From contig CAXHJY010000685.1 in assembly GCA_964016885.1 (NCBI GenBank), forward strand, positions 1 through 24,064: a stretch of 24,064 nt of DNA. The letters run 5' to 3'. The position numbers were made by a program, and so were the translations under genes. How positions within the stretch are numbered: the stretch's first letter is position 1; every line of letters begins with the position of its first letter. The notes beneath the pieces are model-generated. The model was not told the DNA's origin. It saw nothing but the letters and a program-made list of their open reading frames with translations, and searched no databases. This DNA is from Eledone cirrhosa (Eukaryota). This document shows positions 1,644 to 21,230 of the stretch, one piece after another.

Positions 1644-1709
1644 TATTTTATTATACATATTTCAAGGGCGACCAAGGCAAATTATGGTGCGCTTTCATCA
1701 GATAAAATA
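1644..1709 (-). ncRNA. Minimal type I hammerhead ribozyme, inverted copy
   Basis: Reverse complement reads TATTTTAT CTGATGA AAGCGCACCATAATTTGCCTTGGTCGCCCTT GAAA TATGTA TA ATAAAATA. Confidence 0.78.
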
Positions 1710-1779
1710 CAGATTTGTTTCATAAATAAATATTGACATACTCAGAAAAAAGACAATATTTATTTATAAAACAAATCTG

Positions 1780-1845
1780 TATTTTATCTGATGAAAGCGC
1801 ACCAAAATTTGCCTTGGTTGCCCTTGAAATATGTATAATAAAATA
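1780..1845 (+). ncRNA. Minimal type I hammerhead ribozyme (Penelope-like-element type)
   Basis: Stem I TATTTTAT (1780-1787) / ATAAAATA (1838-1845); core CTGATGA (1788-1794); stem II AAGCGCACCAA...TTGGTTGCCCTT; GAAA (1826-1829); self-complementary TATGTA; then U-A, giving predicted cleavage after A1837 (AUA triplet). Confidence 0.8.
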
Positions 1846-1978
1846 AATATGGTTTTATAAATATAGTTTCCATTTATTAATATATTGTGTATTTACTCCA
1901 CTAACTGTTGAGTGCTTTATATCAGTTATAAAAATGTTTAAGCTTGTTGAATCCCAACAAATTAAATATAACCTCTAC

Positions 1979-1979
<1 letters not shown>

Positions 1980-2009
<30 letters not shown>

Positions 2010-2181
2010 ATATGTGTGTGTGTGTGTATGTATATATATGAATGTATGTAAATATGTATCTATATATGTATGTACATATGTATGTATATACGTATGTATC
2101 TATACATGTATTATGTGTATATATATATATATATATGTGCGTGTGTGTATGCATATATATGAATGTATGTACAGTATGTAG

Positions 2182-2226
<45 letters not shown>
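1980..2226. repeat. (TA)n/(TG)n/(TATG)n microsatellite
   Basis: Direct reading. Confidence 0.95.
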
Positions 2227-2229
<3 letters not shown>

Positions 2230-2407
2230 GAAACAGAGAAACTATATAAATATAAATATGAGAAATGGATAAATAGAATATGAGAATTGAAAAGCTAAAT
2301 ATTGGCTATAATGATGGGTGGCATGGAAATAAACCTGAAGAAATGAAAACAAGAGGCTAGGACATAGAAATATAGAGAAGATAGAGAAAATATCAATACT
2401 ATATATA

Positions 2408-2810
2408 CTGTGAAGGTGGATGGCTTAGGGGTTAGAGCATTGGGCTTACAACTCGGAGGTTGTGAACTTGATGTGAAGGTGGATGTCTTAGGGGATGGCA
2501 TTAGGCTTACAATTGGGAAGTTGTGGGCTTGATGTGAAGGTGGATGGCTTAGGGGTTAGAGCATTGGGCTTACAACTGGGAAGTTGTGGGCTTGATGTGA
2601 AGGTGGATGGCTTGATGTGAAGGTGATGTGAAGGTGGATGGCATTGGGCTTACAATTGAGAGGTTGTGGGTTTGATTCTCAGACCTGCCGATGTGTTCTT
2701 CAGCAAGACACTTTATTTCACGTTGGTCCAGTTTACTCAGCTGTAGAAATGTGTTGCAACATCACTGATGCCAAGCTGTATCGGCCATTGCCTTTCACTT
2801 AGACAACACC
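2408..2810 (+). mobile_element. tRNA-derived SINE with tandemly amplified 5' head (~62-bp units)
   Basis: Repeated TGTGAAGGTGGATGGCTTAGGGGTTAGAGCATTGGGCTTACAA (A-box-like) followed by one B-box-like GGTTTGATTCTC and body CAGCAAGACACTTTATTTCACGTTG, which is shared with the minus copy near 10440-10540. Confidence 0.6.
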
Positions 2811-3066
2811 ATATCTAGTGTATATATAGACAATGTATAGTATATATATATATATATGAAATCAATGTATAGTATGTATATAGTCAATGTATAGTATATA
2901 TATATAATCAATGTATAGTATGTATATATAGACAATGTATAGTATGTATATAGTGTATATATATAGACAATGTATAGTGTATATATATATATAGAGAGAG
3001 AGACAATGTATAATATGTATATAATGTATATATAGACAATGTATAGTATGTATATAGTGTATATAT
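2811..3066. repeat. Degenerate TA-rich tandem repeat (CAATGTATAGTATGTATATA units)
   Basis: Direct reading. Confidence 0.85.
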
Positions 3067-3335
3067 GAGTTGCAATGTCACTGGTGCCAGGCTACATTGG
3101 TCTTTGCCTCTCCCTTGGACAACATTGGTGGAGAGACTGGTATAGATGGATGACTGGTGGTCTAACATTGGTAGAGAGACTGGTATAGATGGATGACTGG
3201 TGGTCTTCCACAAACAACCTTGACCAGTCTCTGAGGGGACTTACTATGTGTAAATCCCATGGTCATTTGTGTCCGAAGGGGGTCTTTATCTTCTGCTCTT
3301 TATATAGAGTAAAATAACCATTTGTGATGACACAT

Positions 3336-3592
3336 TAACTGTTAAGTCATAGGATGTGATGTAGTGATGTACAGCTTGTCTTGGACATTTCAGCCTAGAA
3401 ATGACCATCACCTCTCTCTCTCCAGGAGTAACTGTTGATTAAGTCATAGGATGTGATGTAGTGATGTACAGCTTGTCTTGGACATTTCAGCCTAGAAATG
3501 ACCATCACCTCTCTCTCCAGGAGTAACTGTTGATTAAGTCATAGGATGTGATGTAGTGATGTACAGCTTGTCTTGGACACTTCAGCCTAGAA
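3336..3592. repeat. ~95-97-bp tandem repeat, ~2.6 copies
   Basis: AAGTCATAGGATGTGATGTAGTGATGTACAGC recurs at ~3344, 3441 and 3536. Confidence 0.9.
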
Positions 3593-3615
3593 ATAGCTCA
3601 AACAGAACTTTGGAG

Positions 3616-4236
3616 CAAGGTACTGTACTGTCAGCTGGCCAGACTTGTCTCAAGGTACTGTACTGTCAGCTGGCCAGACTTGTCTCAAGGTACTGTATTG
3701 TCAGCTGGCCAGACTTGTCTCAAGGTACTGTATTGTCAGCTGGCCAGACTTGTCTCAAGGTACTGTACTGTCAGCTGGCCAGACTTGTCTCAAGGTACTG
3801 TACTGTCAGCTGGCCAGACTTGTCTCAAGGTACTGTACTGTCAGCTGGCCAGACTTGTCTCAAGGTACTGTATTGTCAGCTGGCCAGACTTGTCTCAAGG
3901 TACTGTACTGTCAGCTGGCCAGACTTGTCTCAAGGTACTGTATTGTCAGCTGGCCAGACTTGTCTCAAGGTACTGTATTGTCAGCTGGCCAGACTTGTCT
4001 CAAGGTACTGTATTGTCAGCTGGCCAGACTTGTCTCAAGGTACTGTACTGTCAGCTGGCCAGACTTGTCTCAAGGTACTGTCAGCTGACTAAACTTGTCT
4101 CAAGGTACAGTACTGTCAGCTGGCCAGACTTGTCTCAAGGTACGGTACTGTCAGCTGGTCAGACTTGTCTCAAGGTACTGTCAGCTGGCTAAACTTGTCT
4201 CAACGTACAGTACTGTCAGGTGGCCAGACTTGTCTC
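3616..4236. repeat. 35-bp minisatellite, roughly 17-18 highly homogeneous copies
   Basis: Unit CAAGGTACTGTA(C/T)TGTCAGCTGGCCAGACTTGTCT; produces the three overlapping repetitive ORFs in the track. Confidence 0.97.
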
Positions 4237-4288
4237 ATGATGTAGATGACCCGTCTGACCCATGAAAGCATGGGAAAATAGACGTTAA

Positions 4289-4792
4289 CCCTTTAGCATT
4301 TAAACTGGCCATATACTGGCCAGAATTATCTCACCTCTTCCTGTTTGAACCGGCTGCAACTCATACTTATGTTAAGGCATTGTTCTCAAAACAACTAATA
4401 TCAAACTCTCATAGATTCGATATTATGTGAGATAATTATGTGAGGTAAAGCCTTTACTGTGAAAATACAATAGTATATATAGAGTAATGTAAATGTTATG
4501 TGAGATAATTATGTGAGGTAAAGCCTTTACTGTGAAAATACAATAGTATATATAGAGTAATGTAAATGTTATGTGAGATATTATGTGAGGTAAAGCCTTT
4601 ACTGTGAAAATACAATAGTATATATAGAGTAATGTAAATGTTATGTGAGATATTATGTGAGGTAAAGCCTTTACTGTGAAAATACAATAGTATATATAGA
4701 GTAATGTAAATGTTATGTGAGATATTATGTGAGGTAAAGCCTTTACTGTGAAAATACAATAGTATATATAGAGTAATGTAAATGTTAAAGGG
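4289..4792. mobile_element. piggyBac-type MITE with internal 72-bp tandem expansion
   Basis: TTAA target duplication (4285-4288, 4793-4796); termini CCCTTTAGCATTTA...TAAATGTTAAAGGG; five 72-73-bp repeats at ~4422-4787. Inserted into a SINE tail (GACG-TTAA-ATGGTGATGATGAT). Confidence 0.85.
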
Positions 4793-4976
4793 TTAAATGG
4801 TGATGATGATTAGCAACTATATAGAATGAATACAATAACAGAAGGGTTAGGGTTGATTTGGGGCACCCCACACTTAATATCAGGCTAATGTGACACACCA
4901 GGAGCAAAACATGTGCCTCCTCTCAGTTTACAGTTGTATTCTAATACTTCAAACATCAGACATGTCTGTTGTGGGG

Positions 4977-5402
4977 GCACATTGTGACGTGTGAAATGGC
5001 ACATTGTGACGTGTGAAATGGCACATTGTAACATGTGTGGAGTAGAGCCACATCTAGACATGTGTGGAGCGGATGTACATCTAGACATGTGTGGAGTGGA
5101 GGTACATCTAGACATGTGTGGAGTGGATGTACATCTAGACATGTGTGGAGTGGAGGTACATCTAGACATGTGTGGAGTGGAGGTACATCTAGACATGAGT
5201 GGAGGGATGTCTCGACATGTGTGGAGTGGAGCCACATCTAGACATGAGTGGAGTGGAGGTACATCTAGACATGAGTGGAGCAGAGGTACATCTAGACATG
5301 AGTGGAGTGGAGGGATGTCTAGATATGTGTGGAGTGGAGCCACATCTAGACATGAGTGGAGTGGAGGTACATCTGTGTGGAGTGGAGCTACATCTGAACA
5401 TG
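4977..5402. repeat. 27-bp minisatellite preceded by a short 22-bp repeat
   Basis: Unit GACATGTGTGGAGTGGAGGTACATCTA; explains the 9-aa periodic ORFs on both strands. Confidence 0.95.
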
Positions 5403-5459
5403 TCACTCTTGTCCCTGTCACAAATCTCTCTCATAACAACTACTACAATAAATGTCTAA

Positions 5460-5905
5460 AGAAAAAGAAGGGGAGAGGGAGAGAGAGGATTATAGAGGGA
5501 GAGGGGAATCAGGGAGAAAGATTGGAGAAAATGAGGAGAAGGGAGTGAAGGGATAGAGAGGTAGAGAAAAGAGAGAGAGAGAGGGACAGAGATGGGAGAG
5601 AGTGAGAGAGATAAGGGAGAGAGAAAGAGCTAGAGAGAGAGATGAGAGAGAGAAAGAGAGAGAGAGTGAGAGTAGAAAGAGAGAGAGAGAGAGTGAGAGC
5701 GAGGAGAGTGAGTAGAGAGAGCTAGAGAGAAGACGGATAGAGTAGAGAGAGAAGAGAGACAGAGGGCGAGTAGAGAGAGAGTAGAGACAGAGAGTGAGAG
5801 TGAGCAGAGAGAGAGTAGAGTGAGAGAGAGTAGAAAGAGAGTAGCGAGAGAGAGAGAGAGTAGAGCGAGAGAGGAGAGAGAGTAGAGGAGAGGAGAGAGA
5901 GAGAA
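5460..5905. repeat. (GA)n-rich purine tract
   Basis: Direct reading. Confidence 0.95.
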
Positions 5906-6126
5906 GTTTATGATTTCTCTACATTTAATTGGAAGATTCCAAAGTAACGAATCCGTTCTCCTGTGGACATTTCTGTTTTTTATGTGAAATCAGGGAAATG
6001 AAGGGATTCTGTTGCCAAAATTCTGATATTTGGCAAAACAACAGTAAAAAAAACAGAGAAATAAACACTGCAAATAGAATTCTTAAAGGAGTCAAATAAT
6101 TATTGTTCATCTTCCTTCTTCTACTT

Positions 6127-6650
6127 GACACACACGCATACACACACACATATACACATGTACACTCACACATGCAGTCACACTCACACACATGCACGCA
6201 CACACACACACACGCATATACACGCATACACATGTACACTCACACACAAATACACATATATACACACACTTACGTGCACACACATGCACACACACACACA
6301 CATATACATGCATACACATGCACACTCACACACACACACCTACATACACATGCACATACACATGCCCAAACATACACACATACATGGAATATCTATCCCC
6401 CCCACACACACATATACACGCACACACATACATACACACATACACGCACACACACATGCCCAAACACATGGGCACACACACACATGGAATATTTATCCCC
6501 CCACACACACACATATACACGCACACAAACATACACATGCACACACTCATACACATGCCCAAACACACACACATGCCCAAACACATGCACACATACACAC
6601 ATTTATGCACACATTTATACACACAAATACATGGGCACACACACACATGG
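6127..6650. repeat. (CA)n-rich degenerate microsatellite
   Basis: Direct reading; source of the His/Thr and Cys/Val ORFs. Confidence 0.95.
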
Positions 6651-6859
6651 AATAATATTTATCCATTAACATATGATATTTTACAAAGAAGTTTCCATTG
6701 TTGATTTAACCCTTAACACCCTGAAGTGATTTTATAAAAAAAACAGAAAATCTAAAATCAGGTTTGTTAATTCAAATATTTATTGTATCTTTACTGGTGG
6801 ACAGATAGCAGTGAAAAGTTTCAGTATTAAAATAAAGGTGTCATTTTTTAATGTGGTGA

Positions 6860-7262
6860 AGTCTTCTTCTTCGCCCACATATTCTTGAGAGGGTTGTGAG
6901 GGGCAGAGTGCTCAAACACTCCTTCCAATAGGTCCTATCAGAAGCAACCTTCTCCTGATCCAGCTGGATCCCCAAGCGAGACCATCCAAGCTCAGAGATG
7001 TTATCCAACCATCTTGCTCGGGGTCTACATCTGAGTCTCCTACCAGTTGGTTTTGCTCCTAAAATCTGTCCAGCGATTATTTCCTGAGACATTCTAACCA
7101 CATGTCCATAGTATCAGAGCTGTGATCTCTCAAATCGGAGAAGTAGCACCTCTACCTCGAGTGACACTCTGATTTCCGAGCTACACACTCTATCAAGTAA
7201 TGTTAATCCAAGACCCTTTGGAGGAATCCTATTTCGGCCACTTGTATTTGCAATCATATTCT
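6860..7262 (-). mobile_element. RTE-clade LINE 3' fragment, degenerate
   Basis: Minus translation includes LLRFERSQL*YYGHVVRMSQEIIAGQILGAKPTGRRLRCRPRARWLDNISELGWSRLGI...ASDRTYWKECLSTLP, matching the RTE W/Y-x-G-H-V-x-R-M...G-R-P-R-x-R-W pattern; (GAA)n tail near 6862-6872. Confidence 0.85.
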
Positions 7263-7519
7263 TTCATTTGCAATGGCAAATAAAAGTGGTGTAGTCATAT
7301 TGTTTTATTGCATTTTTCATGAATGACTTACCAATGAGTTTTATGTGGTACAAGATGTTAAGAAATTATCAATCGAAGTGTATTACTGGTATGTGAACAT
7401 GGATAGATACATGACCAAGTCTAATTTAGCAAAGTTTGAACAGAATGTAAGGAGATGAACCTAAAGAACATTCTGATGTTTGAATATCTAAATAACCTAG
7501 TCAGATAAGGATTTGATCA

Positions 7520-7628
7520 TGTCATGGATACAAGCGGCCAAAAATAGGATTTCTCAGAAAGGTTGTTACTTGATAAAGTGCATAGCTTGGAGATCAGAGA
7601 GTCACTCCAAGTAGAGCCACTACTGCCA
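7520..7628 (+). mobile_element. Short RTE fragment related to 7140-7250, opposite orientation
   Basis: ATACAAGCGGCCAAAAATAGGATTTCTC...CTTGATAAAGTGCATAGCTTGGAGATCAGAGAGTCACTC resembles the reverse complement of 7150-7248. Confidence 0.6.
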
Positions 7629-7645
7629 ATATGTATATATATATA

Positions 7646-7978
7646 TATAAGCAAAGGGATATTTAATTCAACAAATATATATATTTATAACAGATTCGAA
7701 GCACTCAACAGATTTTCTGGAGTATAATATCAATGATTTTAATAAATGGAAAACTATATTTATAAAACCATATTTACTCAATTATATATATTTCAAGGGT
7801 ACCAAAACTTTGGTATGCTCTCATCAGATAAAATACAAAGTTTGTTTTATAAATATTGACATATCCAGGAATAAGACCTTAACGGTTCAAGTTTTACCTG
7901 GATAGTAAAAGGAAAAAGGGGAAGAGAGGAAAAAAAGAAATATTTTCAATTATTTAGAAGAATATGCAAATGAGGTTA
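7646..7978 (-). mobile_element. Hammerhead-bearing ~340-bp repeat (Penelope-like pseudo-LTR)
   Basis: Reverse complement aligns over its length with 20891-21230 (e.g. ACTATCCAGGTAAAACTTGAACCGTTAAGGT vs ACTATCCAAGGAAAACTTGAACTGTTAAGGT). 3' end runs into (TA)n. Confidence 0.75.
7775..7835 (-). ncRNA. Minimal type I hammerhead ribozyme
   Basis: Reverse complement reads TATTTTAT CTGATGA GAGCATACCAAAGTTTTGGTACCCTT GAAA TATATA TA ATTGAGTA. Core intact; stem I has G-U wobbles and one mismatch. Confidence 0.72.
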
Positions 7979-8110
7979 GGGTTAGGGTTATATAGTTTTG
8001 CAGCTGCAGACTCCAACCAATAAACAATGCAAGGAGGGCTAAACATCAGTATATCTTTCCTAGAGTGATATGGGATCACACATATCCATGTATGATAGAT
8101 ATTGGTATAT

Positions 8111-8325
8111 TAATAAAGCAGAAGGTAATTAAGTTAAACTTGACTACATTATATTTATTACATAATTGTAAACCTTCCAGATACAATGTCATCAGACTAC
8201 TCTCATATGTAATTGTATCTGGAATGTTTACAATTATGTAACAGATACCATGGAAATACGTAAACAGATATTAAATAATAAATGAAATGTGTTGAAGTTT
8301 AACCTAATTACCTTCTAATTTATTA
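8111..8325. repeat. Nested imperfect inverted repeat containing split hammerhead-like motifs
   Basis: Outer arms 8111-8160 / ~8275-8325, inner arms 8158-8187 / 8212-8241. CTGATGA on minus at 8189-8195; GAAATACGTA on plus at 8253-8262. Confidence 0.65.
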
Positions 8326-8379
8326 TTTATAATTATACATCTATAAGTGTGTGTGTGTGTGTCTGTGTGTGTGTAAAAT

Positions 8380-8690
8380 TGGTGGAATGCCAGGCAATGT
8401 TAATTTTTGGCATTTGTTTTAGTCCTGTGACATATCAAGTTCAAATTCCACTCAAGGACACTGCCTATTTTTCCATCTTTCCAAGGTCGATAAACTAAAT
8501 CATATATAATAAATGATAAATAGAGTTGATGTAATGAATTGTCAGAGTCATTAGAACATCAGATAGAATGTTTTCCATTATTTGTTCCGAATCTCTGCTC
8601 TCTGAGTTCAAATTTCACCAAGGTCAACTTTGCCTTTCAGCCAATCAAGGTCGATAAAAAAAGTACCAATCTAGTACTAGGGATGATTCT
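8380..8690 (+). mobile_element. Two degenerate tRNA-derived SINE copies (GAGGTCAACTTTGCCTTTCATCC...GGGGTCGATAAAATAAAGTACCAG family)
   Basis: B-box-like GAGTTCAAATT followed by AAGGTCAACTTTGCCTTTCA and GGTCGATAAAAAAAGTACCA. Confidence 0.65.
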
Positions 8691-9014
8691 TGCTCTATAT
8701 CTCTTTCTTGCATTCATTCTCTCACTCTGTATCACTGGAATAAGCTGTATTGAAACGTGGAGAAAGATGCACTCTGCCAAGGTTAAAAAGCCTGAAATAC
8801 ATTGTATGCCACTACAGCATCCCTACAACAGGCAGTACAGGACCATAATTTACCAACCTGATCTGACCCCAGCATGACCCCATTCTCAAGACTAGTAAAA
8901 GGCAAAAATGCATGTCAGTGTTTCAGTGAGAGCACGCACGCGCACACACATACACACACAGATTGAAAACCACCTCAGCTGTATTTAACGATGCTTAAAT
9001 AAAGTTCTAATTAC

Positions 9015-9140
9015 CACAGTTAATTTCATCTTCCCAATCTCCACAGTCATTTTCACCATCACACTTTAGCTTGGCTGCAATACACTGTCGCTTTCCAGGG
9101 CAAAACATTTCATTGGACTTGCAGTTTTCTTTACTAAACT
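9015..9140 (-). CDS. Internal coding exon encoding a second LDLa module, probably the same gene
   Basis: Minus strand: acceptor tttgttcctttcag, 126-nt exon, donor G|gtaatt, phase 1-1. Translation xFSKENCKSNEMFCPGKRQCIAAKLKCDGENDCGDWEDEINC has six Cys and CDGENDCGDWEDE. Splices in frame to the 22373-22486 exon across a ~13.2-kb intron. Confidence 0.95.
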
Positions 9141-9177
9141 CTGAAAGGAACAAATTACATATATTGTTGTTATTATT

Positions 9178-9888
9178 GATAAAACAAACTACCAGTAATA
9201 CACTGGGGTCAATTTTATCGACTTCCCATTCCCCTTCAAATTGCTGACTTTGTGCCTAAAGTAGAAACAATTATTACTCTTAAGGCGGGGAATTGGCAGA
9301 ACGTTGGACAGAATCCTTTGCAGTATTTAGTTACATCCCATTACATTTTAAGTTCAAATCTTGCCAAGGTTAGCTTTGCCTTTCATCCTTATGTGATTGA
9401 TAAAATAAAGTACCAGTAATGCACTGCTGTTGATTTAATCGACTTTCTCCTCCCCCAAAGTTGGCCTTATGCCAAAATCAGAAAAAGCAGTATTAGTAAT
9501 TGAAATAAGGATGGTGGAGCATCAGACACCCTGCTTTGTGGCATATAGCTATGGTCATTTAAGTTCTGAGTTGAAATCCCGCCAAGGTTAGCTTTGCCTT
9601 ACAGGGTCAATAAAATAAAGTACCAGTAACACCCTGGGGTTCAGTTAAACAACTTTCCCCTCCCCCCAAATTGTTGGCCTTGTGTCTAATTCAGAAACCA
9701 AGAGCGGTAGATTGGCAGTATCGGTAGAGGGTCGGACGCTATGCTTTGATGCATAGAGTTACGGCCCTTGCCATTCTGAGTTCGAATCCCGATGAGGTCA
9801 ACTTTGCCTTTCATCCTTACGGGGTCGATAAAATAAAGTACCAGTAATGCACTGGGTAATTGCTGCCAAAAAGGTAGAAACAATTATT
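9178..9888 (+). mobile_element. Tandem cluster of 3-4 tRNA-derived SINE copies of the same family
   Basis: Copies at ~9282-9485, ~9510-9695 and ~9700-9885 plus a partial one at 9178-9270. Each has a B-box-like GTT(C/G)AAATC, CTTTGCCTT, GATAAAATAAAGTACCAGTAA and a TTGTGCC...AGAAAC end. Confidence 0.85.
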
Positions 9889-10960: not shown

Positions 10961-11002
10961 TTTATCCTGTTTATTATTTTTATTATTTTTCTCAAGAAAA
11001 AG

Positions 11003-11430
11003 GGCAGTGGATTGGCAGTATCAGTAGAGAGTTGGACACCATGCTGCAGCATAGAGTTATGGTCCTTTAACCCTTTAGCATTCACATTATTCTATATATA
11101 CTATTATATTTTCATGGTAAAGGTTTTACCTCACATAATATCGAATCTATGAGATTTTGAAAGTATTTATTTTGAGAACAATACCTTAACATCAGTATGA
11201 GTGGCCAGTTACAGCCAGTTTCAACAGAAAGAGGTAGAGAATTCTGGCCGGTTTTGGCCGGTTTGAACATTAAAGGGTTAAGGTCTGATTTCAAATCCCA
11301 CTGAGGTTAACTTTCCCTTTCATCCTTACGGGGTCGATAAAATAAAGTACCAGTAATGTACTGGGGTTGATTTAATCACCTTTCCCCTCCCCTCAAATTA
11401 CTGGCCTTGTGCCTATAGTAGAAATCATTA
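11003..11430 (+). mobile_element. tRNA-derived SINE interrupted by a MITE
   Basis: 5' half 11003-11070 and 3' half 11282-11430 join to match the 9700-9885 copy. Confidence 0.85.
11071..11277. mobile_element. piggyBac-type MITE
   Basis: TTAA duplication (11067-11070, 11278-11281); termini CCCTTTAGCATTCA...TGAACATTAAAGGG; inverted homologue of 4289-4792 and 15650-15855. Confidence 0.9.
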
Positions 11431-11479
11431 TTTTTCTTAAGAAAACATTCACCATTCTATACTTGTGTTCATCAATAAA

Positions 11480-12570: not shown

Positions 12571-12669
12571 GCAGGGGTGTAAAGGTATGGGAGAAGGGTG
12601 GTGTGATCAGATGTGGGTGGGATGTTAGGGCACGGGAGATGTATGGAAGAGGGAGGGAATGGAAGGATA

Positions 12670-12929: not shown

Positions 12930-12991
<62 letters not shown>
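12670..12991. repeat. (TG)n/(TGAG)n microsatellite
   Basis: Direct reading. Confidence 0.95.
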
Positions 12992-12994
<3 letters not shown>

Positions 12995-13045
12995 TATTTT
13001 TTTTACTAATTTCACTAGTTTTACTGCTGGTGTACCATCTTTTAG

Positions 13046-13121
13046 AATGAAGATAATTGGCCGGCGTTTATGTTATAAAAAACGAAGTGAACCTGGACAG
13101 GATTTGACAAAATACCCCACA
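13046..13121 (+). CDS. Candidate exon of an unidentified nested antisense gene
   Basis: Branch-like TACTAAT (13004-13010), acceptor ccatcttttag. Only one frame is open: xMKIIGRRLCYKKRSEPGQDLTKYPT. Donor gtatct is weak. CpG-rich relative to flanks. Confidence 0.3.
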
Positions 13122-13369
13122 GTATCTTCTCATATGCTCTACTATCATATATACCTAAATATAAGCCAACTCCACTATTTCATGTCTGAGAAATGGGCAA
13201 AATTCCAAACTCTGTTAATAAGCCAAGGCAGCTAATCAACACATTATGTTTAGATGGTGAATATCATTGATTTCTTTTGGTCACATATTCTTCAGCTTAT
13301 ATTTGAGTACATACTATAATTCTGATATCCACCTGTATAACAGATGACACATACACGTGTGTGTGTGTA

Positions 13370-13402
<33 letters not shown>

Positions 13403-14049
13403 ATGACCTATATTTTTACCACTGGTGATATTATAAGGCAAGTCATGTCATCTGCCACCTCATATTTTCACAATCACCACCACTGACATACTGTCACCTG
13501 TACAAATACAATCTCTAAAGCATTGAATATTATAAAGAACAGCTTTTGAAGTTAAGTGAACATAAAAAAGATAACATTTGTTAAGTGTGACACAACAACT
13601 ATTTGTTGACCAGCTCCTCAAACACTTGTTTTTGTCCTAACAATAAGAATTTTAAAGTCATGCTAAAACTGATTGAAGTTCAGTTCTTGTAAGTAAAAAA
13701 AAAAAAAAAAAAAAAAAGAAAGAAAAATGGCATGGGAAATCATTGACATTCAATCTGACATTTCAAAGATGTAATAGTAAATATTTTAAGTTTTATATAA
13801 CTTGTTTCTTTTTTGTTTCATTGATTACTACCCCTGTTGACAACAAAAGGTTTCTCTCTGTGAGATATATGAAATATATACAGAAGATATGCAAAGGCTG
13901 AAGAGAAGCAAGCCTGCTTCATTGGATGTGTAATGTTAATATGTATGAATGGAAAAGCATGTATGAGCTGAGATAACTGGGTATAATGGTGATGCCCCAG
14001 CATGGCCTTATCATGTCGTCTGTAACATATAATAGAGTAATAGAGTAGC

Positions 14050-14272
14050 CTGATGTAATGTGAAAGAGAAAAGACTGTGCTGGTATGGACATGTTGTACA
14101 TGATCATTGTGTGAAGAAATGCCAAGAGATCACAGTGGAAGGAAGTTGTGGTAGAGGATGACCAAGGAAGACCTGGGCAGAAGAGATAAATGTAACAAAT
14201 GGAAGGAGTCTGTGTTGGAAAAGACATGTCCAACCCATGAAAACATGGAAAATTCTGTAAAAGTATGATGAA
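14050..14272 (+). mobile_element. Degenerate RTE 3' fragment plus SINE-type tail
   Basis: AAAAGACTGTGCTGGTATGGACATGT (R-L-x-W-Y-G-H-V) ... GACCAAGGAAGACCTGG (R-P-R-K-T-W), followed by TGTCCAACCCATGAAAACATGGAAAA. Confidence 0.6.
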
Positions 14273-14415
14273 GACTTTCGTTTTTCTCTTTCTATCCAAC
14301 CTCAACATAATTTAGGCAATTTTGGCATAGCTTTTGATGGTTCCACTTAGTTGCATTGTATTATAGTGTAAGTAATTGGCTGAGTATTCCATAGACACCT
14401 GTACTAGTCAAAATA

Positions 14416-14649
14416 ACCCCTTTAGTTACCAACCCAGACCAAAACAGGCTCTAGTCCTATGAAATAAAACCACCCATTATAAAGGTTTCCAATTTTAAAA
14501 CCTTCCAACATAATTTTATATAAGAACCTTACATTAAGTTACTATCTTAGTAATGAAATAATTAATAATTTTAGTAAAGCCTTCAACATTCTTCATTAAT
14601 TAATTAAAATAGAATGTATTTCATTAGAAATGTTGTTATGAAAGGGTTA
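14416..14649. mobile_element. Probable degenerate piggyBac-type MITE of a second family
   Basis: Starts AACCCCTTTAGTTACC, ends GTTATGAAAGGGTTAA; internal AAAACCTTCCAACATAAT is related in reverse to 21400-21500. Confidence 0.45.
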
Positions 14650-14705
14650 AAATAATCTTCAAGTAGATACAGCATGATATGTGAGTGAAACAAGCTTGGA
14701 CCTCT

Positions 14706-15199
14706 GAATTACAGGTAGAATTGTACTAGTAATTTGTATTATACCTGTAATTTGTATTAGAGGTAGAATTATACCTGTAATTTGTATTATACCTGTAATT
14801 TGTATTACAGGTAGAATTCTACCTGTTGTTCCTATTGCAGGTAGAATTATACCTGTAATTTGTATTACAGGTAGAATTGTACCTGTAATTTGTATTACAG
14901 GTAGAATTGTACCTGTAATTTATATTAGAGGTAGAATTATACCTGTTATTCCTATTACAGGTAGAATTATACCTGTTATTTGTATTACAGGTAGAATTGT
15001 ACCTGTAATTTGTATTAGAGGTAGAATTGTACTAGTAATTTGTATTATACCTGTAATTTGTATTAGAGGTAGAATTATACCTGTTATTCCTATTACAGGT
15101 AGAATTATACCTGTTATTTGTATTACAGGTAGAATTGTACCTGTAATACAAATTACAGGTAGAATTGTACCTGTTATTTGTATAACAGGTACAATTATA
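14706..15199. repeat. 30-bp palindromic minisatellite
   Basis: Unit ACCTGTAATTTGTATTACAGGTAGAATTGT contains TACCTGTAAT-TTGT-ATTACAGGTA, a 10-bp perfect stem with a 4-nt loop. Confidence 0.95.
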
Positions 15200-15315
15200 G
15201 ACTGTTGAAGTAATAGTAACTTTATGTGAATATGTCTTTCTTGTCATTAATTATTGAACTGAAACAAACCAGTTTTTACTTTTAGTGAGGATAGAAGAAA
15301 GTTTGTTTTCTACAG

Positions 15316-15434
15316 ATATTTTCTAAAGAGATGCACGAACACCACAAGTGTTTATCGGTCGATATAGAGTTCCTTGCCAATGGGATCTGTATACCTACAG
15401 TCATGTTATGTTTAATCCATCACGAGGAAAGGAA
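15316..15434 (+). CDS. Candidate exon of an unidentified nested antisense gene
   Basis: Acceptor gtttgttttctacag, donor AA|gtgagt. Only phase 0 is open: IFSKEMHEHHKCLSVDIEFLANGICIPTVMLCLIHHEER. Phase-compatible with 13046-13121. Confidence 0.35.
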
Positions 15435-15649
15435 GTGAGTGGGAAGTTTGCCTCCAGATATAATCATGACCATAAAATGAGGAAGTCACATCTCAAAAAC
15501 ATTTTTTTTTATTGTAACCAATGCTTTGGGCAGTTGAACTGTTTTAACATTTTCATCAACCAAATAAACAGTATCAGATATTGATAATATCACAGTTGCC
15601 AACATAGAACATATATTGTGAACAATCAAATAAGAAAAATCTGCTTAAC

Positions 15650-15855
15650 CCTTTAGCATTTAAACTGGCCATATCCGGCCAGATTTCTCTCACTTCTTTC
15701 AGTTTGGCCGCTCATACTTATGTTAAGGTATTGTTCCCAAAATAAACAATATAAAAATCTTATTGATTCAATATTATGTGAAATAATTATGTGAGGTAAA
15801 GCCTTCAACATGAAAATATAATAGTATATATAGAGTAATGTGAATGGTAAAGAGT
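15650..15855. mobile_element. piggyBac-type MITE
   Basis: TTAA-CCCTTTAGCATTTAAACTGGCC...GTGAATGGTAAAGAG-TTAA; same family as 4289-4792. Confidence 0.85.
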
Positions 15856-15875
15856 TAATCACTTGTATTGGCTTT

Positions 15876-16328
15876 CACACTGTCAACTGGAACACTTGTA
15901 TCAGGATGTCACACTGTCAACTACAGCTGTAACAAGATGTCACACTGTCAACTACAGCTGTAACAAGATGCCACACTGTCAACTACAGCTGTAACAGGAT
16001 GTCACACTCTCAACTACACCTGTATGAGGATGTCACACTGTCAGCTACACCTTATCAGGATGTCACACTGTCAACTGCTACACCTGTAACAGGATGTTGG
16101 ACTGTCAATTACACCAGTAACAGGATGTCACACTGTCAACTGCACCTGTCACAAAGTGTCACACTGTCAACTACACCTGTCACAAAGTGTCACACTGTCA
16201 ACTACACCTGTAACAAGATGTCACACTGTCAACTACACCTGTAACAAGATGTCACACTGTCAACTACACCTGTGACAATGTATCACACTGTCAACCCCTA
16301 AACCTGTAACAAGATGTCACACTGTCAA
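15876..16328. repeat. 31-bp minisatellite, ~14 copies
   Basis: Unit GATGTCACACTGTCAACTACACCTGTAACAA. Confidence 0.95.
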
Positions 16329-16407
16329 ACAAGTATATAAGAGTCCATTCTCTTAATGTTGGACATCATATAAGTGTGTGTAACTACGCTGGCTGAAAAG
16401 TACATAG

Positions 16408-16558
16408 TCTGACCAAGTTACTCTCATGGAATGACCAAATGAGGTTTATTTTTCAGCATAGTCCTTGGAAAAAAACAAGATTTGAAATTAATGCAAGATT
16501 CACAGCTCTAACATCACTCCTTCATAGGATGACCAAGATACTCCCATGGAACGACCAT
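16408..16558 (+). repeat. Dispersed ~137-bp repeat also present in tandem at 21981-22250
   Basis: GACCAAG(T/A)TACTCTCATGGAATGACCAAATGAGGTTTATTTTTCA...GAAATTAATGCAAGATT...CACAGCTCTA shared. Confidence 0.8.
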
Positions 16559-16652
16559 AGTAGTTTGCCTAGCAGGTAAACCTATTTTAGTGCTAAAGAA
16601 AACTCCTTTTGTCTACCAATTGAAACAGTAACAGACTTTTGTAAGGATCCCT

Positions 16653-16818
16653 CCACACACACAAACACACAGACATATATACAAACACTCTCACACACAT
16701 ACACACACACACTCACAGAGACACACAGACATATACACACGCATGCATACAAATACACATACACATAGATATATACACACTGACACACACACATGCATAC
16801 AAATACACATACACACAG

Positions 16819-16848
<30 letters not shown>
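16653..16848. repeat. (CA)n microsatellite
   Basis: Direct reading. Confidence 0.95.
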
Positions 16849-16849
<1 letters not shown>

Positions 16850-17271
16850 AATATTTGTTATGCCTCCACTTTACACCATAGTATATATATATGTTTAACA
16901 GTGTCTGCTAAAATGTGTTAAGGATGTTGAAAAGTAAATGTGATAAGTTATCTTTACAACTTATCACCTTATTACATCACTTTGGGGAAAGAATGAGATG
17001 TAAAGCCTGAATAACATAAAATAGAGAATATGGCTTAAAGATGTTAAAAGATAGGTGAAGAATGGACACATTGAGTAAGCAGGTGAGAATAAAAGAGTTT
17101 GTAATGCAGTCTGGAAGAATGTTGGCGAAGAATTGGTTTAAAGAAGCTGGTGAGATATGTCAGCGACTGTTGATTGATTGTCAAACTAAAGAATACATGC
17201 AGTTATCTTATTGAAATATAGGAATACCTACAGCAAGTAAAGAATGGTAAGAAATATAAGATAATGTTGAT

Positions 17272-17287
17272 ACTACTACTACTGCTG

Positions 17288-17334
<47 letters not shown>

Positions 17335-17416
17335 GCCACTACTATTACTACCACCACCACCACCACTACTACCACCACTACTACTACTACTGCCACTACT
17401 ACTACTACTACTACTG

Positions 17417-17451
<35 letters not shown>

Positions 17452-17670
17452 GCCACTTCCACTACTACTACTACTACTACTGCCACTACTACTACTACTG
17501 CCACTTCCACTACTACTACTACTACTTCCACTACTACTACTACTTCCACTACTACTACTACTACTACTACTTCCACTACTGCTGCTGCTACTAGTGCTGC
17601 TACTAGTGCTGCTACTACTACTGCTACTAGTGCTGCTACTACTACTGCTACTGCTACTAATAATAATAAT
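17272..17670. repeat. (CTA)n/(CCA)n/(CTG)n trinucleotide microsatellite ending in (AAT)n
   Basis: Direct reading; source of the poly-Ser/Val/Leu ORFs. Confidence 0.95.
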
Positions 17671-17776
17671 AATTGTTTCTACTTTTGGCACAAGGCCAGC
17701 AATTATCCCAGTGTATTACTGGTACTTTATTTTATTGACCCTGTAAGGATGAAAGGCAAAGTTAACCTCGGCGGCA
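17671..17776 (-). mobile_element. 5'-truncated tRNA-derived SINE copy
   Basis: Reverse complement of the SINE body: AAGGATGAAAGGCAAAGTTAACCTCGGCGG and ACTGGTACTTTATTTTATTGACCC. Confidence 0.8.
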
Positions 17777-17780
17777 TAAT

Positions 17781-18040
17781 GGTTTCATTTGTTGGCCACA
17801 AGGGCCGACATATAGGGGACAATACAAAAGACAGGGACAGTGGGGGGAGGGGGGTTTACACAAATATCAAGTAAAAGATAGGAAAACAATAACAATTAAC
17901 AAGAAAAATACAACAATGAAAATTCCCCAATAGGAGGGATAACCACCCAGGGTTGATTCAGGGACCCCACCAATCCTGAACCACCCGACGCTTCGAGGGC
18001 ACCTGGGAAGGGCACCCCTCTCCTCCTCAAATTCACCAGC
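17781..18040 (-). mobile_element. L1/Tx1-like LINE 3'-UTR fragment (copy 1)
   Basis: Close match to 19700-19957. Confidence 0.75.
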
Positions 18041-18130
18041 CTAATAATAATAATGATAACAACAATAACAACAACAATAATTGACACCCGGCATGATTTG
18101 GGAAAGAAGCAGAACTCAAAGGAAGTTTCA

Positions 18131-18161
<31 letters not shown>

Positions 18162-18663
18162 CTGCTTTCTTTATTAACCACAAGGGTTTACACAAAGTAG
18201 ACATTAAGGACAGTACAGGACAATACAAATGGGCATTTCTGTGTGTAAAAAACCCCCCAAAAAACAGAGGATGTAATAAAAGAACAATGAAAAAAAATTC
18301 CCCAATAGGGGGGAGACTTCCGAGGGACATTCGTGGAGAAAGCCAATTAAAAAAGCCACAGTGACCCTGACCACCAGGGCAAGTGCCCTCTCCCAGTTTT
18401 CCACCTTTAATTTACAGGCACATACTCAGAGTAGGCCCATTCACTCGGGCCATTCTTGCCTCTCTCACCCATCTTCCAACAAAATGCTGGGAAGAGAGCA
18501 TTTCCCTCTCTACCCTGATTTTCCTTTTCAAATGAAATTTGAAAAGGTTTATCAGGGTTCACCAAAGAGGTAAGTGCTCATCTTCAGCCCTTTCAGACGT
18601 GTCCACCATACTATCTCTTTCGCCATGGCCACGAGACAGATAAAAACTGCCTGCCCTTCCCGG
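18162..18663 (-). mobile_element. L1/Tx1-like LINE 3' fragment (copy 2)
   Basis: Minus translation REGQAVFICLVAMAKEIVWWTRLKGLKMSTYLFGEP is homologous to the 19958-20412 ORF end; bounded by (AAT)n on both sides. Confidence 0.8.
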
Positions 18664-18738
18664 CTAATAATAATAATAATAATAATGATAATAATAATAA
18701 TATTAACAATAATGATAATAGTAATAATAATAATAATG

Positions 18739-19045
18739 GTTTCTTTATTGGCCACAAGGGCTAACATGAGGAAAAACATTAGAGACGGCACAGAACAGTA
18801 CAGGACGTACAAAGTGGGTTTTGGTCGTGTAAACAGGTTATAACAAAATTGGGCTAGAAGTCAAAAAAATTCAAACAACAAAAATTCCCCAAGAAAGGGG
18901 AAACCTCCGAGGGTCACTCGTGGTGAAAACTGCACAAAAGCGCCCTCTCTCACTTTTCCCATTCCTCAGTCTACAGGCGCATACGCAGAGTGGGCCCATT
19001 CACTCGGACCAGACTCGCCACTTTCACCCACCTTTCCACAAACTT
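18739..19045 (-). mobile_element. L1/Tx1-like LINE 3' fragment (copy 3)
   Basis: TTTATTGGCCACAAGGGC 3' end and CTACAGGCGCATACGCAGAGTGGGCCCATTCAC stop region shared with the other copies. Confidence 0.75.
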
Positions 19046-19054
19046 ACTAGAATA

Positions 19055-19200
19055 ATAATTTTTTCTACTTTTGGCACAAGGCCAGCAATTACTCAGTACA
19101 TTACTGGTACTTTATTTTATCGACCCCCGTAAGGATGAAAGGCAAAGTTGACCTCGGCGGGATTTGAACTCAGAATGGAAAGGCCCGTAACTATGCGTCA
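19055..19200 (-). mobile_element. tRNA-derived SINE, truncated
   Basis: Same family as 9700-9885, reversed. Confidence 0.85.
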
Positions 19201-19203
19201 ATA

Positions 19204-19470
19204 CTAAAAAGGATTTGGAACTGCCATGAGATCAAGGTTGTCCTGATTGTCATCGGAGCACTAGGTACTATCTCAAAGAGTTTCCAAGGATGGTTAAAGC
19301 CCCGTTTTTTGGAACACTTCAAAAGGCATGCTTGCTGGGAACAGCAAGAACCCTCCGATACGTCCTGAATATCTGAGGCTGCAGGTAGTGGCTTGTTATA
19401 CATTTCAACAAACCTTCCAGTTAAATAACATCAATGACTGAGACTCAAAGAACAATAATAATAATAATAA
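19204..19470 (+). mobile_element. R4/Dong-like non-LTR retrotransposon 3' fragment with (AAT)n tail
   Basis: Translation LKRIWNCHEIKVVLIVIGALGTISKSFQGWLK / LQKACLLGTARTLRYVLNI* matches the V-x-P-I-V-I-G-A-L-G...L-Q-K-x2-L-L-G-T-A-R end of R4/Dong elements. Confidence 0.8.
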
Positions 19471-19660
19471 TTGTTTCTACTTTTGGCACAAGGCCAGCAA
19501 TTACCCAGTACATTACTGGTACTTTATTTTATCAACCCCGTAAGGATGAAAGGCAAAGTTAACCTCGGCAGGATTTGAACTCAGACCCTAAAGGGCCGTA
19601 ACTCTTTGCTGCAAGGCATGGCGTCAGACCCTCTACCGATACTGCCAATCCACCGCCCTT
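19471..19660 (-). mobile_element. Full-length tRNA-derived SINE
   Basis: Minus: AAGGGCGGTGGATTGGCAGTATCGGTAGAGGG (A-box region) ... GAGTTCAAATCC (B box) ... CTTGTGCCAAAAGTAGAAACAATT. Confidence 0.88.
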
Positions 19661-19697
19661 ACAACAACAACAACAACAATAATAATAATAATAATAA

Positions 19698-20412
19698 TGA
19701 TTTCATTTATTGGCCACAAGGGCCGACATATAGGGGACAACACAATAGACAGGGACAGTGGGGGTTTACATAGAGATCGAGTAAGTATAAATAACAAAAA
19801 AACAAAAACAAAATAACAATAAAAATACAACAATGAAAGTTCCCCAATAAGAGGGATCACCACCCAGGGTTGACTCAAGCACCCCACCAGTCCTGAGCCA
19901 CCCGACGCTCCTAGGGCACCCGGGAAGGGCACCCCTCTCCTTCTCGAATTCACCAGCCTACAGGCGCATGATCAGAGTAGGCCCACTCACGCGGGCCATT
20001 CTCGCCACATTCACCCACCTTTCAGTAAATGTACTGGGGGGCAGCACTTCTCTCTCCACCCTCACCTTCCTTTCCAAGTGAAACTTGAAGAAGTTGATGA
20101 GGGATTGGCCGAAGAGAAAAGTGTCTGTCTTCAGTCCTTTCAACCTGGTCCACCATGCAACCTCTTTCGCTACTGCCACCAGGCAGAGGAAAATTGCCTG
20201 CCCTTCCTGACCAAAAGAAGGCGGCGGGTCAATCTTCACTATGGACTCGGACGATAGCCGGATCCGTTCTACACGCGACAATAGCTGTTCGACATAACCC
20301 CCACAAGTCAGCAATGCACGGACACTGGACGAGTGCGTGCAGAACGGTTTCGTCGCTCTGCGCGCATCTCGGGCAGGTTCGTCTGACAGCACTTCCGTGC
20401 CTGTGCTTGTGA
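19698..20412 (-). mobile_element. L1/Tx1-like LINE 3' fragment (copy 4) with CCHC zinc knuckle, frameshifted
   Basis: Minus translation RTCPRCAQSDETVLHALVQCPCIADLW / GYVEQLLSRVE...FLCLVAVAKEVAWWTRLKG...RWVNVARMARVSGPTLIMRL*; C-x2-C-x8-H-x4-C is the ORF2 C-terminal motif of L1/Tx1 elements. Confidence 0.85.
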
Positions 20413-20677
20413 AGAATCATATAACCTCTGGTAAATACAAAACTAGGTTAGAGGAAGAAATTTGAAAGAAATCAAAAAAAATCTCATTAATGCAAAGATG
20501 AAAGATGTTAGAAAGGAATTGAGAAAAGTTGTATGTTGCTACTTATGACAAAAGGAGCAAAGCTGTGTTGATAGCTGAAGAAAACACCTTCTCATATTTA
20601 CATAGCATTATGTTCTGAGTTTAAATCTTGCTATGGGTCAATTTTACATTTCATATTTCCAGGGTTGATGATATAGA

Positions 20678-20775
20678 CTAGAGGTTCCAAAACATTTTGG
20701 GTCACTGCCCCCCTCACAGCTATGTAATACCCTCACTGCCCCACACCGCTATTTCCAAAGAGCCCAGTCTACATG
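20678..20775 (+). mobile_element. Possible hAT (Charlie-like) MITE left end
   Basis: TAGAGGTTCCAAAACATTTTGGGTCACTGCCCCCCT resembles the CAG(T/A)GGTTCCCAAACTTTT termini; no matching right end found. Confidence 0.35.
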
Positions 20776-20890
20776 CAAATTGTAAATAATATGTAATAAA
20801 TATAATTGTTAATTTATATATAATAAATAATATAATATATACTATGTACAAATAAATATTATATTATATTTTTTTTCAGCCCTTTTACTT

Positions 20891-21230
20891 AAACCTCCTT
20901 TGCATACTCATCTTAATAATTTGAAATATCTGACTTTTCTTCTCTTATCCCTTCACTATCCAAGGAAAACTTGAACTGTTAAGGTATATTCTCCTTGGTT
21001 ATGTCAAAATTTATAAAACACACTTCGTATTTTATCTGATGATAGCGTACCAAAATTTTGGTACCCTTGAAATGTATATAATAGAATAAATATGGTTTTA
21101 TAAATATAGTTTCCATTTATTTAATATCATTCTATATTATACTCCAGAAATCCTGTCGAGTGCTCTGAATCAGTTATAAACATTTATATTTGTTGAATTA
21201 CCAACAAATTGAATATCCCTTCTGCTTATA
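20891..21230 (+). mobile_element. Hammerhead-bearing ~340-bp repeat (Penelope-like pseudo-LTR)
   Basis: Same family as 7646-7978 and 1754-1978; contains the hammerhead at 21028-21088. Confidence 0.75.
21028..21088 (+). ncRNA. Minimal type I hammerhead ribozyme
   Basis: TATTTTAT CTGATGA TAGCGTACCAAAATTTTGGTACCCTT GAAA TGTATA TA ATAGAATA. Core intact; stem II GTACCAAAA/TTTTGGTAC. Confidence 0.75.

What the first reader, a model, noticed from the sequence alone, without database searches (positions are those of the whole stretch)
1644..21088. A non-coding repeat family carrying four intact minimal hammerhead ribozymes
Seen: four copies (1644-1709 -, 1780-1845 +, 7775-7835 -, 21028-21088 +) keep TATTTTAT-CTGATGA-[stem II]-GAAA-[6 nt]-TA-[stem I partner]. 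The catalytic core is invariant while flanks differ. Stem II changes sequence but stays paired (GCACCAA/TTGGTTGC, ATACCAAA/TTTGGTA, GTACCAAAA/TTTTGGTAC). The stem III hexamer varies among TATGTA, TATATA and TGTATA, all self-complementary with G-U allowed. Established: Penelope-like elements and retrozymes carry minimal type I hammerheads with a short palindromic stem III that is proposed to cleave as a dimer. Inference: this is a ~340-bp, possibly non-autonomous, self-cleaving PLE/retrozyme-like family with an AU-rich stem I, an AUA cleavage triplet and no G10.1-C11.1 pair; I cannot tell whether it is already catalogued.
Basis: partly seen in the sequence, partly recalled or inferred. Interest (0 to 1): 0.85.

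Follow-up and report, generated by a model that had tools for sequence, protein, structure and literature searches.

The report
Hammerhead ends of Hydra-type Penelope retrotransposons
The four hammerhead-ribozyme motifs are real and are the cut-down tail ends of a very abundant Penelope-type jumping gene, a known kind, and their regular ends suggest that two small RNA hairpins likely set where copying starts on each DNA strand.

Summary
The four type I hammerhead motifs are present at the stated coordinates (0.005 expected per shuffle). They are not a stand-alone 340-bp element. They are 3' pseudo-LTR ends of 5'-truncated Penelope-like retrotransposons with Hydra-clade protein motifs: relatives run upstream into a reverse transcriptase and GIY-YIG ORF (3.5-kb unit). 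An exact pattern finds 40,312 such hammerheads in the genome. The two copies at 1594-1984 are one head-to-head insertion. Hydra elements with hammerheads are published, including another octopus family; the AUA triplet differs from those. Added here: copies end at two fixed sites about 60 and 150 nt past the cut, each just before a bulged hairpin; 62 of 62 clean head-to-head pairs have one end of each kind; many copies start at one site about 125-133 nt before the cut, and almost none at the cut. Likely mechanism: both target strands prime on one RNA, and ORF-bearing copies may need a ribozyme-made circle. Cleavage and expression are untested. The scan had already noted the twin hairpins and the fixed start on other DNA of this genome.

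The parts
1594..1756 (-). Family B inverted arm, short 3' end (cut+58), 5' end at cut-105; one insertion with 1754-1984
   Evidence: 96% to family B copy L076; 142-nt arms 96% complementary
1644..1709 (-). Type I hammerhead, predicted cut after 1652
1754..1984 (+). Family B direct arm, long 3' end (cut+148, with the 90-nt tail), 5' end at cut-84; overlaps the inverted arm by 3 nt; followed by (TA)n
   Evidence: 99% to L076
1780..1845 (+). Type I hammerhead, predicted cut after 1837
1895..1916 (+). Bulged hairpin 1 (RCUC...GAGY-RCU), just 3' of the short-end site
1921..1931 (+). 5' strand of long-range helix P2; its partner lies in the element body, absent here
7639..7977 (-). Family A-type 3' end, long form, more diverged (82%), 5' end near cut-187
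7775..7835 (-). Type I hammerhead, predicted cut after 7783; stem I 7 of 8 pairs
7700..7723 (-). Bulged hairpin 1
20871..21237 (+). Family A 3' end, long form, 5'-truncated at cut-207 (end point includes a few TA-rich bases)
   Evidence: 94% to L031
20955..20961 (+). Site matching the fixed 5' start of family B copies (cut-126); likely transcription start, inferred
21028..21088 (+). Type I hammerhead, predicted cut after 21080; U.U at the base of stem II
21141..21164 (+). Bulged hairpin 1; short-form copies of the family end at about 21141
21142..21230 (+). The 90-nt one-sided tail between the two fixed 3' ends; holds the P2 5' strand at 21169-21179

Best explanation
The four motifs are hammerhead-bearing 3' ends of 5'-truncated Penelope-like retrotransposons with Hydra-clade motifs, inserted at (TA)n, and they were likely made when both nicked target strands primed reverse transcription on one RNA at two internal sites, each set by a small bulged hairpin. 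Shown: the link to an RT plus GIY-YIG ORF, two fixed 3' ends, a hairpin 0-7 nt behind each, one short and one long end per head-to-head insertion, a fixed 5' start, and no scar or pile-up at the cut. Inferred: (1) transcripts start about 125-133 nt before the hammerhead in the upstream pseudo-LTR; (2) the structured leader between cut and start codon binds two RT subunits, one per hairpin; (3) on an uncut linear RNA the RTs run off at the transcript's 5' end, giving the many 190- and 280-nt copies; (4) ORF-bearing copies that end at the same sites need the 3' UTR placed ahead of the leader, most simply by cutting at both hammerheads, with the two palindromic stems III paired to each other, and ligation into a 3.5-kb circle. 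Run-on round the circle would give the partial tandems. Identity about 0.95, steps 1-3 about 0.65, step 4 about 0.4.
For: ORF link. RT fold: model pLDDT 88.8, best matches retron, DRT2 and telomerase RTs. Hydra motifs DKT, RWR, CxCx5C, CxxC and CxH. Hammerhead selection between families: 12 of 20 pairs change on both sides, 0 of 500 shuffles reach it (12 hand-picked rows); core constant except N7 while upstream flanks are 42-64% alike; octamer fully self-complementary in 129 of 139 variants. Two 3' ends; 164 of 181 long ends that do not continue into the body are followed by (TA)n. 62 of 62 clean same-family head-to-head pairs are long plus short; 7 of 7 informative whole insertions have opposite ends. 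Arms share minor alleles beyond chance. Hairpin descriptor: 203 distinct hits against about 10 expected, 121 within 220 nt after a cut; seen by eye in 4 of 6 published Hydra consensi. Fixed 5' start: 15 of 42 genome-order family C copies on two positions. No scar at the cut in 222 of 228 copies. Two RT start sites bounding the tail, both strands extended, and a predicted dimer are published for Poseidon (PMC11167929).
Against: No cleavage, circle, transcript start or protein binding was observed. In PMC11167929 ribozyme mutants insert normally in vitro and the start site is not homologous to the target. Only 1 of 275 aligned pieces starts exactly at the cut: this fits a circle but equally an RNA that is never cut. 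The A/B octamer duplex is weak (-2.2 to -3.2 kcal/mol) and the hammerhead fold lies 3.9-4.6 kcal/mol above the minimum-energy fold in all four window copies. AUA is the slowest of four triplets tested in PMC1636495 (abstract). Hairpin 2 has a short upper stem, its bulged form is not resolved in the minimum-energy folds, and it is mispaired or absent in several; it was not found for family D. The fixed start is weak in family A (3 of 85, in a sample biased to longer copies). 12, 15 and 36 minor alleles occur in one arm only. No intact ORF was found, and no tree was built.
Confidence: 0.62

Rival explanations
1. Same element and same twin priming, but the ribozyme is not needed for insertion. 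Long copies come from uncut RNA whose 3' pseudo-LTR pairs with the 5' leader through helices P1 and P2, or from a template jump; the hammerhead only trims transcripts or rides along.
For: P1 and P2 covary between families and could pair across the RNA's two ends; short copies plainly come from uncut RNA; ribozyme mutants insert normally in vitro (PMC11167929); Naiads thrive without canonical hammerheads (PMC8557442).
Against: The hammerhead is kept with compensatory changes across at least five families; 13 of 22 partial tandems read on through the cut site with no junction scar; none of 25 showed an upstream copy reaching the 1.5-kb limit.
Confidence: 0.3
2. The inverted arm arises by self-priming on an antisense template and the tail by endonuclease resolution of the intermediate, as proposed in PMC3846280 and PMC8557442; the hairpin motif would then be a DNA signal for the endonuclease.
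For: Fold-back junctions are common in families B and C; PMC11167929 cites that the D. virilis endonuclease needs the tail sequence.
Against: The motif keeps pairing, G.U included, while its stem sequence changes freely; either arm can be the long one; PMC11167929 maps both ends of the tail to RT start sites.
Confidence: 0.12
3. The two arms are copied from two RNA molecules held together by the palindromic stem III, not from one.
For: The octamer is self-complementary in 129 of 139 variants; some minor alleles occur in one arm only.
Against: Two equal RNAs should give long-long and short-short pairs half the time; 0 of 62 clean pairs do.
Confidence: 0.1
4. One reading: a short non-autonomous retrozyme-like family that amplifies as its own small circle.
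For: Most of the 40,312 matches are probably short (inferred); many share one 5' start; retrozymes derive from PLE pseudo-LTRs (10.64898/2026.07.22.740005, abstract and part 1).
Against: No short head-to-tail arrays: the one same-family tandem pair is spaced 3.5 kb; short and ORF-linked copies share sequence at 90-99%; short copies lack hairpin 2.
Confidence: 0.06

Closest known systems
Hydra clade of C-terminal-endonuclease Penelope-like elements, including Hydra-1_Obim of Octopus bimaculoides (Craig et al. 2021, PMC8557442)
   Same: RT then GIY-YIG; DKT, RW[KR], CxCx5C, CxxC and CxH motifs; (TA)n targeting; type I hammerhead near the 3' end, often without G-C at the base of stem II; inverted 5'-truncated copy; one-sided tail.
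   Different: Other families than Hydra-1_Obim (different hammerhead; protein only similar by eye). Unit 3.5 kb with a 1.1-kb 3' UTR against mostly under 3 kb; AUA triplet against GUH in all 26 listed rows; tail about 90 nt against 30-40. The paper's main text has no 'hairpin', 'stem-loop' or 'twin'.
Poseidon element of Anolis carolinensis, PAc (Frangieh et al. 2024, PMC11167929)
   Same: Two internal RT start sites downstream of the hammerhead that bound the tail; AT-rich target; no sign of RNA ends at the cut.
   Different: Penelope/Poseidon clade; start sites inside the ORF in one AC-rich stem-loop; here they lie before the ORF, in TA-rich sequence, each ahead of its own hairpin.
Minimal PLE hammerheads (Cervera and de la Pena 2014, PMC4209133)
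   Same: Type I, palindromic stem III, dimer proposed, mostly dispersed single motifs from truncated PLEs; circle model proposed there.
   Different: Stem III octamer is longer than in the minimal form; G10.1-C11.1, conserved there, is found in 3 of 139 variants here.
Animal non-LTR retrozymes (PMC7229834; 10.64898/2026.07.22.740005)
   Same: Type I hammerheads, high copy number, low G+C.
   Different: Retrozymes are 150-450-bp head-to-tail repeats without an ORF; these are dispersed or head-to-head ends of an ORF-bearing element.

Membership tests
Type I hammerhead | Core CUGANGA / GAAA / UH with stems I-III | tested here: met
Type I hammerhead | Covarying helices | tested here: met
   12 of 20 pairs, 0 of 500 shuffles; hand-picked related rows
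Type I hammerhead | Purine-pyrimidine pair G10.1-C11.1 | tested here: not met
   A.U 80, U.U 31, G.U 20, G-C 3, other 5 of 139; also absent in 19 of 26 published Hydra rows
Type I hammerhead | Rfam model match | tested here: not met
   no hammerhead among 50 matches at E<=1
Type I hammerhead | Self-cleavage | not testable with these tools
   needs an assay
EN+ Penelope-like element | RT followed by GIY-YIG endonuclease in one reading | tested here: met
   Pfam: no relevant hit in 11 own fragments, sub-threshold RVT_1 in 3 and GIY-YIG in 1 of 20 homologues; Atlas 0.94-0.96
EN+ Penelope-like element | Partial tandem (pseudo-LTR), inverted copy, one-sided tail | tested here: met
   L061
EN+ Penelope-like element | Intact single ORF | tested here: inconclusive
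   all copies examined carry breaks; longest open frame 556 codons among 150 matches
Hydra clade | DKT for DKG, RWK-type motif | tested here: met
   DKT and RWR in own copies; DK[TS] 25, DKG 0, RW[KR] 17 of 26 full-length homologues
Hydra clade | CxCx5C linker, CxxC and CxH around E and N, no CCHH | tested here: met
   CxCx5C in copies; CxxC and CxH in L031; lack of CCHH judged by eye
Hydra clade | (TA)n target | tested here: met
   164 of 181 long ends
Hydra clade | Generally under 3 kb | tested here: not met
   3,532 nt cut to cut; a tendency in the paper, not a diagnostic
Hydra clade | Placement in the RT tree | not tested
   published reference proteins were read by eye only
Non-LTR retrozyme | Short head-to-tail repeats without ORF | tested here: not met
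Non-LTR retrozyme | Abundant small circular RNA | not testable with these tools
   needs RNA data

The most novel reading that the evidence does not exclude
Hydra-type PLEs use a conserved two-hairpin RNA leader to load two telomerase-related RTs, one on each target strand. Because every genomic copy ends before hairpin 2, a full-length copy can only be made from a hammerhead-cut, re-ligated circle. That would give the PLE hammerhead its missing job and explain tail, inverted arm, partial tandem and tens of thousands of short run-off copies in one scheme.
Probability: 0.3. Interest if true: 0.78.

Novelty: new member of a known kind. Interest (0 to 1): 0.48.

Why it matters
As a ribozyme find it is ordinary: PLE hammerheads, Hydra ones included, are published. 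The value lies in the record left by tens of thousands of copies. What the hammerhead does for PLEs, and how tails, inverted arms and pseudo-LTRs arise, are called open in PMC8557442 and PMC2377424. The fixed ends, the paired hairpins and the strict long-short rule turn these into specific mutants and predicted products. If the hairpins do place the RT, they define a compact RNA signal for internal, repeat-primed initiation in the sister group of telomerase.

Tried and rejected
Rfam scan: only microsatellite-driven miRNA-type matches. Pfam on 11 own-genome fragments: no relevant family; PDB sequence search: nothing for the single protein, one weak retron RT match for the profile. My first guess of Neptune clade was dropped after reading section 11 of PMC8557442. 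Pile-up of 5' ends at the cut, as from a cut linear template: not seen. In one search the value for L158 (+85) is an alignment break at a deletion; the piece starts about 540 nt before the cut. One search counted 53 pairs without removing overlapping loci and was replaced. Within-family conservation was uninformative: among 21 of 30 endonuclease-selected copies the core differed at 2.7%, GAAA at 7.1% and the downstream flank at 7.9%. A pattern for family C's second hairpin failed because the junction differed from my guess; the hairpin was then found. A DNA search with family C's tail returned nothing although an exact pattern gave 10,199 matches. Family D's second hairpin was not found. No RT or endonuclease of these families lies in the window.
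Full report
Observation. The window is a whole 24,064-base contig of a 3.0-Gb animal genome. Rfam does not detect them.

What the copies belong to. A search with 20890-21240 gave 4,514 candidates; the 40 scored are 93-97% identical apart from the window itself. In the 30 loci fetched, the 3' end is fixed and followed by (TA)n while the 5' end varies; 14 of 30 share more than 400 nt further upstream and 6 more than 1,250 nt. The upstream DNA encodes a GIY-YIG endonuclease and an RT. L061 holds a whole unit: hammerhead at 4034, start codon at 4224, ORF end near 6430, second hammerhead at 7565, 3,532 nt from cut to cut, plus an inverted truncated copy. A model of a 438-residue fragment (pLDDT 88.8) matches retron, DRT2 and telomerase RTs. 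Pfam is silent on 11 own fragments. The motifs DKT, RWR, CxCx5C, CxxC and CxH are those that section 11 of PMC8557442 gives for the Hydra clade. Its supplement lists Hydra-1_Obim from Octopus bimaculoides, with a different hammerhead. The copies at 7639-7977 and 20871-21237 are family A type. The two at 1594-1756 and 1754-1984 belong to sister family B, linked to RT and endonuclease pieces at 57-82% identity, and form one head-to-head insertion with a 3-nt overlap. An exact pattern for the A, B and C hammerheads has 40,312 matches in the genome and 0 for the reversed control. No intact ORF was seen among 150 endonuclease matches.

The ribozyme. Across five families the core differs only at the free position 7, while upstream flanks are 42-64% alike. 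In 12 hand-picked variants from four families, 12 of 20 pairs change on both sides, beyond all 500 shuffles (related rows inflate this). The stem III octamer is fully self-complementary in 129 of 139 distinct variants and the triplet is AUA in 131. All 26 Hydra rows in File S2 have GUH, and 19 lack G10.1-C11.1 (by eye), so AUA is the new trait and the missing pair is not. AUA occurs naturally and is slow (PMC1636495, abstract). Against strong activity: the octamer duplex of A and B is weak, and the hammerhead fold is 3.9-4.6 kcal/mol above the minimum in all four window copies. A transcript through 1594-1984 would also lock both motifs in a 142-bp duplex (inference). Low activity, best as dimers, is reported for PLE hammerheads (PMC4209133), and protein help for one (PMC11167929).

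Two fixed 3' ends. Copies end about 55-61 nt or 145-155 nt after the cut in families A, B and C. Of 68 distinct head-to-head pairs, 62 are clean and same-family (A and B pooled), and all 62 have one short and one long end. Three more long-short pairs were set aside (one cross-family, two with a microsatellite between). Two long-long pairs involve an inner pseudo-LTR, and one short-short pair joins two families across a microsatellite. The queries fixed the long end in A and B and the short end in C, and the partner was the opposite each time. In 9 larger family A insertions fetched as a test, 7 were informative and all 7 had opposite outer ends. Minor alleles are shared by both arms 18, 54 and 139 times against 8, 14 and 51 expected, and occur in one arm only 12, 15 and 36 times. 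A one-sided tail is known (PMC8557442, PMC3846280), and PMC11167929 maps its two ends to RT start sites.

Two hairpins. Each end lies 0-7 nt before a hairpin RCUC-stem-loop-stem-bulge-GAGY followed by RCU. Hairpin 1 opens the tail and is present in the three long window copies only. Hairpin 2 opens the element body and is seen only in partial tandems of A, B and C. A strict descriptor gives 203 distinct hits in 2.28 Mb of overlapping loci against 4.4 per Mb in shuffles; 121 lie within 220 nt after a cut of families A-D, and many others follow further hammerhead families. The outer pair switches between A-U and G-C. By eye the same hairpin is in 4 of the 6 consensi of File S7, twice in Hydra-1_Ajap and, less perfectly, twice in Hydra-1_Crog. 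Folds of nine leaders recover hairpin 1 and the long helix P2 in all, with P2 of different sequence in C than in A and B, and an outer helix P1 in seven; hairpin 2 is recovered only as its base helix, or not at all. I found no description of these hairpins in searches or in the word searches; supplementary figures held as pictures could not be seen. Two earlier notes of this scan (e1-9596226, e1-8804728) report the twin hairpins from other pieces of this genome; I reached them before that look-up (notes), and the notes are not independent evidence.

A fixed 5' start, and nothing at the cut. In family C, 15 of 42 copies taken in genome order start at cut-124 or -125, and 39 of 77 overall at -126 to -124. 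In B, 22 of 57 start at -133 to -129; in A only 3 of 85, in a sample biased to long copies. The site reads like an initiator (recalled consensus), and Penelope transcripts start inside the pseudo-LTR (PMC2377424, passages). Only 1 of 275 pieces starts exactly at the cut, and 222 of 228 copies show no length change across it. Of 25 loci with the body start, 22 had an alignable upstream piece, 13 of these reach past the cut, and none reached the 1.5-kb limit.

Mechanism. Shown: everything above. Inferred: the RNA starts at the fixed site; the leader binds two RT subunits; each nicked (TA)n strand primes before one hairpin; on uncut RNA both run off after about 190 and 280 nt and join head to head. 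Genomic copies stop before hairpin 2, so a transcript of pLTR-ORF-pLTR has the full signal only at its 5' end. To copy the ORF from those sites the 3' UTR must come ahead of the leader. Cutting at both hammerheads, which can supply each other's stem III, and ligation into a circle does this without a scar, and run-on gives partial tandems; a circle was proposed in PMC4209133. Long-range pairing or a template jump on uncut RNA is the main rival, and my data do not separate the two.

Papers seen. PMC8557442: passages, section 11, supplement parts 2, 52, 53 and search hits. PMC4209133 and PMC11167929: parts 1-2 of 4; for the latter also word searches in text and supplements. 10.64898/2026.07.22.740005: part 1 of 5. 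PMC7229834, PMC2377424, PMC3846280, PMC13282606: passages (the last lists Penelope-like families in Octopus vulgaris, with no mention of Hydra or ribozymes; its library was not seen and may hold these families). PMC1636495: abstract.

Verdict. A new, very abundant member of a known kind. Interest 0.48, carried by the testable account of priming sites and of the ribozyme's role.

Noticed in passing
window 1385-1590: A second head-to-head pair between (TA)n tracts, one arm long and one short, directly beside the family B insertion. Its sequence continues in L076 and L285 into another hammerhead-like motif with a GUC triplet.
   Followed up: partly
L094, L095, L064, L066: A very common (TA)n-inserted family with GAAAC, a long hairpin and GUC, found as head-to-head long and short pairs with hairpin 1; no CUGANGA seen in the short arms.
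   Followed up: partly
L183-L212; L069, L065, L066, L071, L194: At least five further hammerhead families in this genome. Family D has a very short stem II, octamer ACAAUUGU and GUU; others have longer stems III and GUA. Most show the hairpin, or a close variant, 40-60 nt after the cut.
   Followed up: partly
window 7963-7971 and 7972-7989: An octamer-type motif ATTTGCAT (recalled POU site) about 55-60 nt upstream of the fixed start in families A and B; at the 5' end of the copy at 7639-7977 it abuts two TTAGGG-type repeats.
   Followed up: no
window 8110-8330: Inverted repeat with a CUGAUGA on the minus strand but no GAAA; no match in the fetched loci.
   Followed up: partly
window 19190-19400 (+): Broken 3' end of a LINE with a restriction-like endonuclease tail (label Dong/R4 recalled), followed by (TAA)n.
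   Followed up: partly
window 19980-20400 (-), 17900-18660, 18900-19040: Fragments of an L1/Tx1-like LINE 3' end (label recalled).
   Followed up: partly
window 9290-9865, 11229-11433, 17665-17775, 19051-19170, 19463-19660, 21551-21730, 22700-23150: About ten pieces of one SINE-like repeat in both orientations.
   Followed up: no
window 3616-4250, 4435-4790, 5004-5400, 14740-15200, 15870-16330: Minisatellites with periods 35, 72, 27, 30 and 31.
   Followed up: no
L031:6609-7379, L041-L060: Asparagine-rich linker between RT and endonuclease, like the N-rich inserts described in PMC3846280.
   Followed up: no
L165 and L166: Two insertions on different contigs with nearly identical flanks, probably a segmental duplication.
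   Followed up: no
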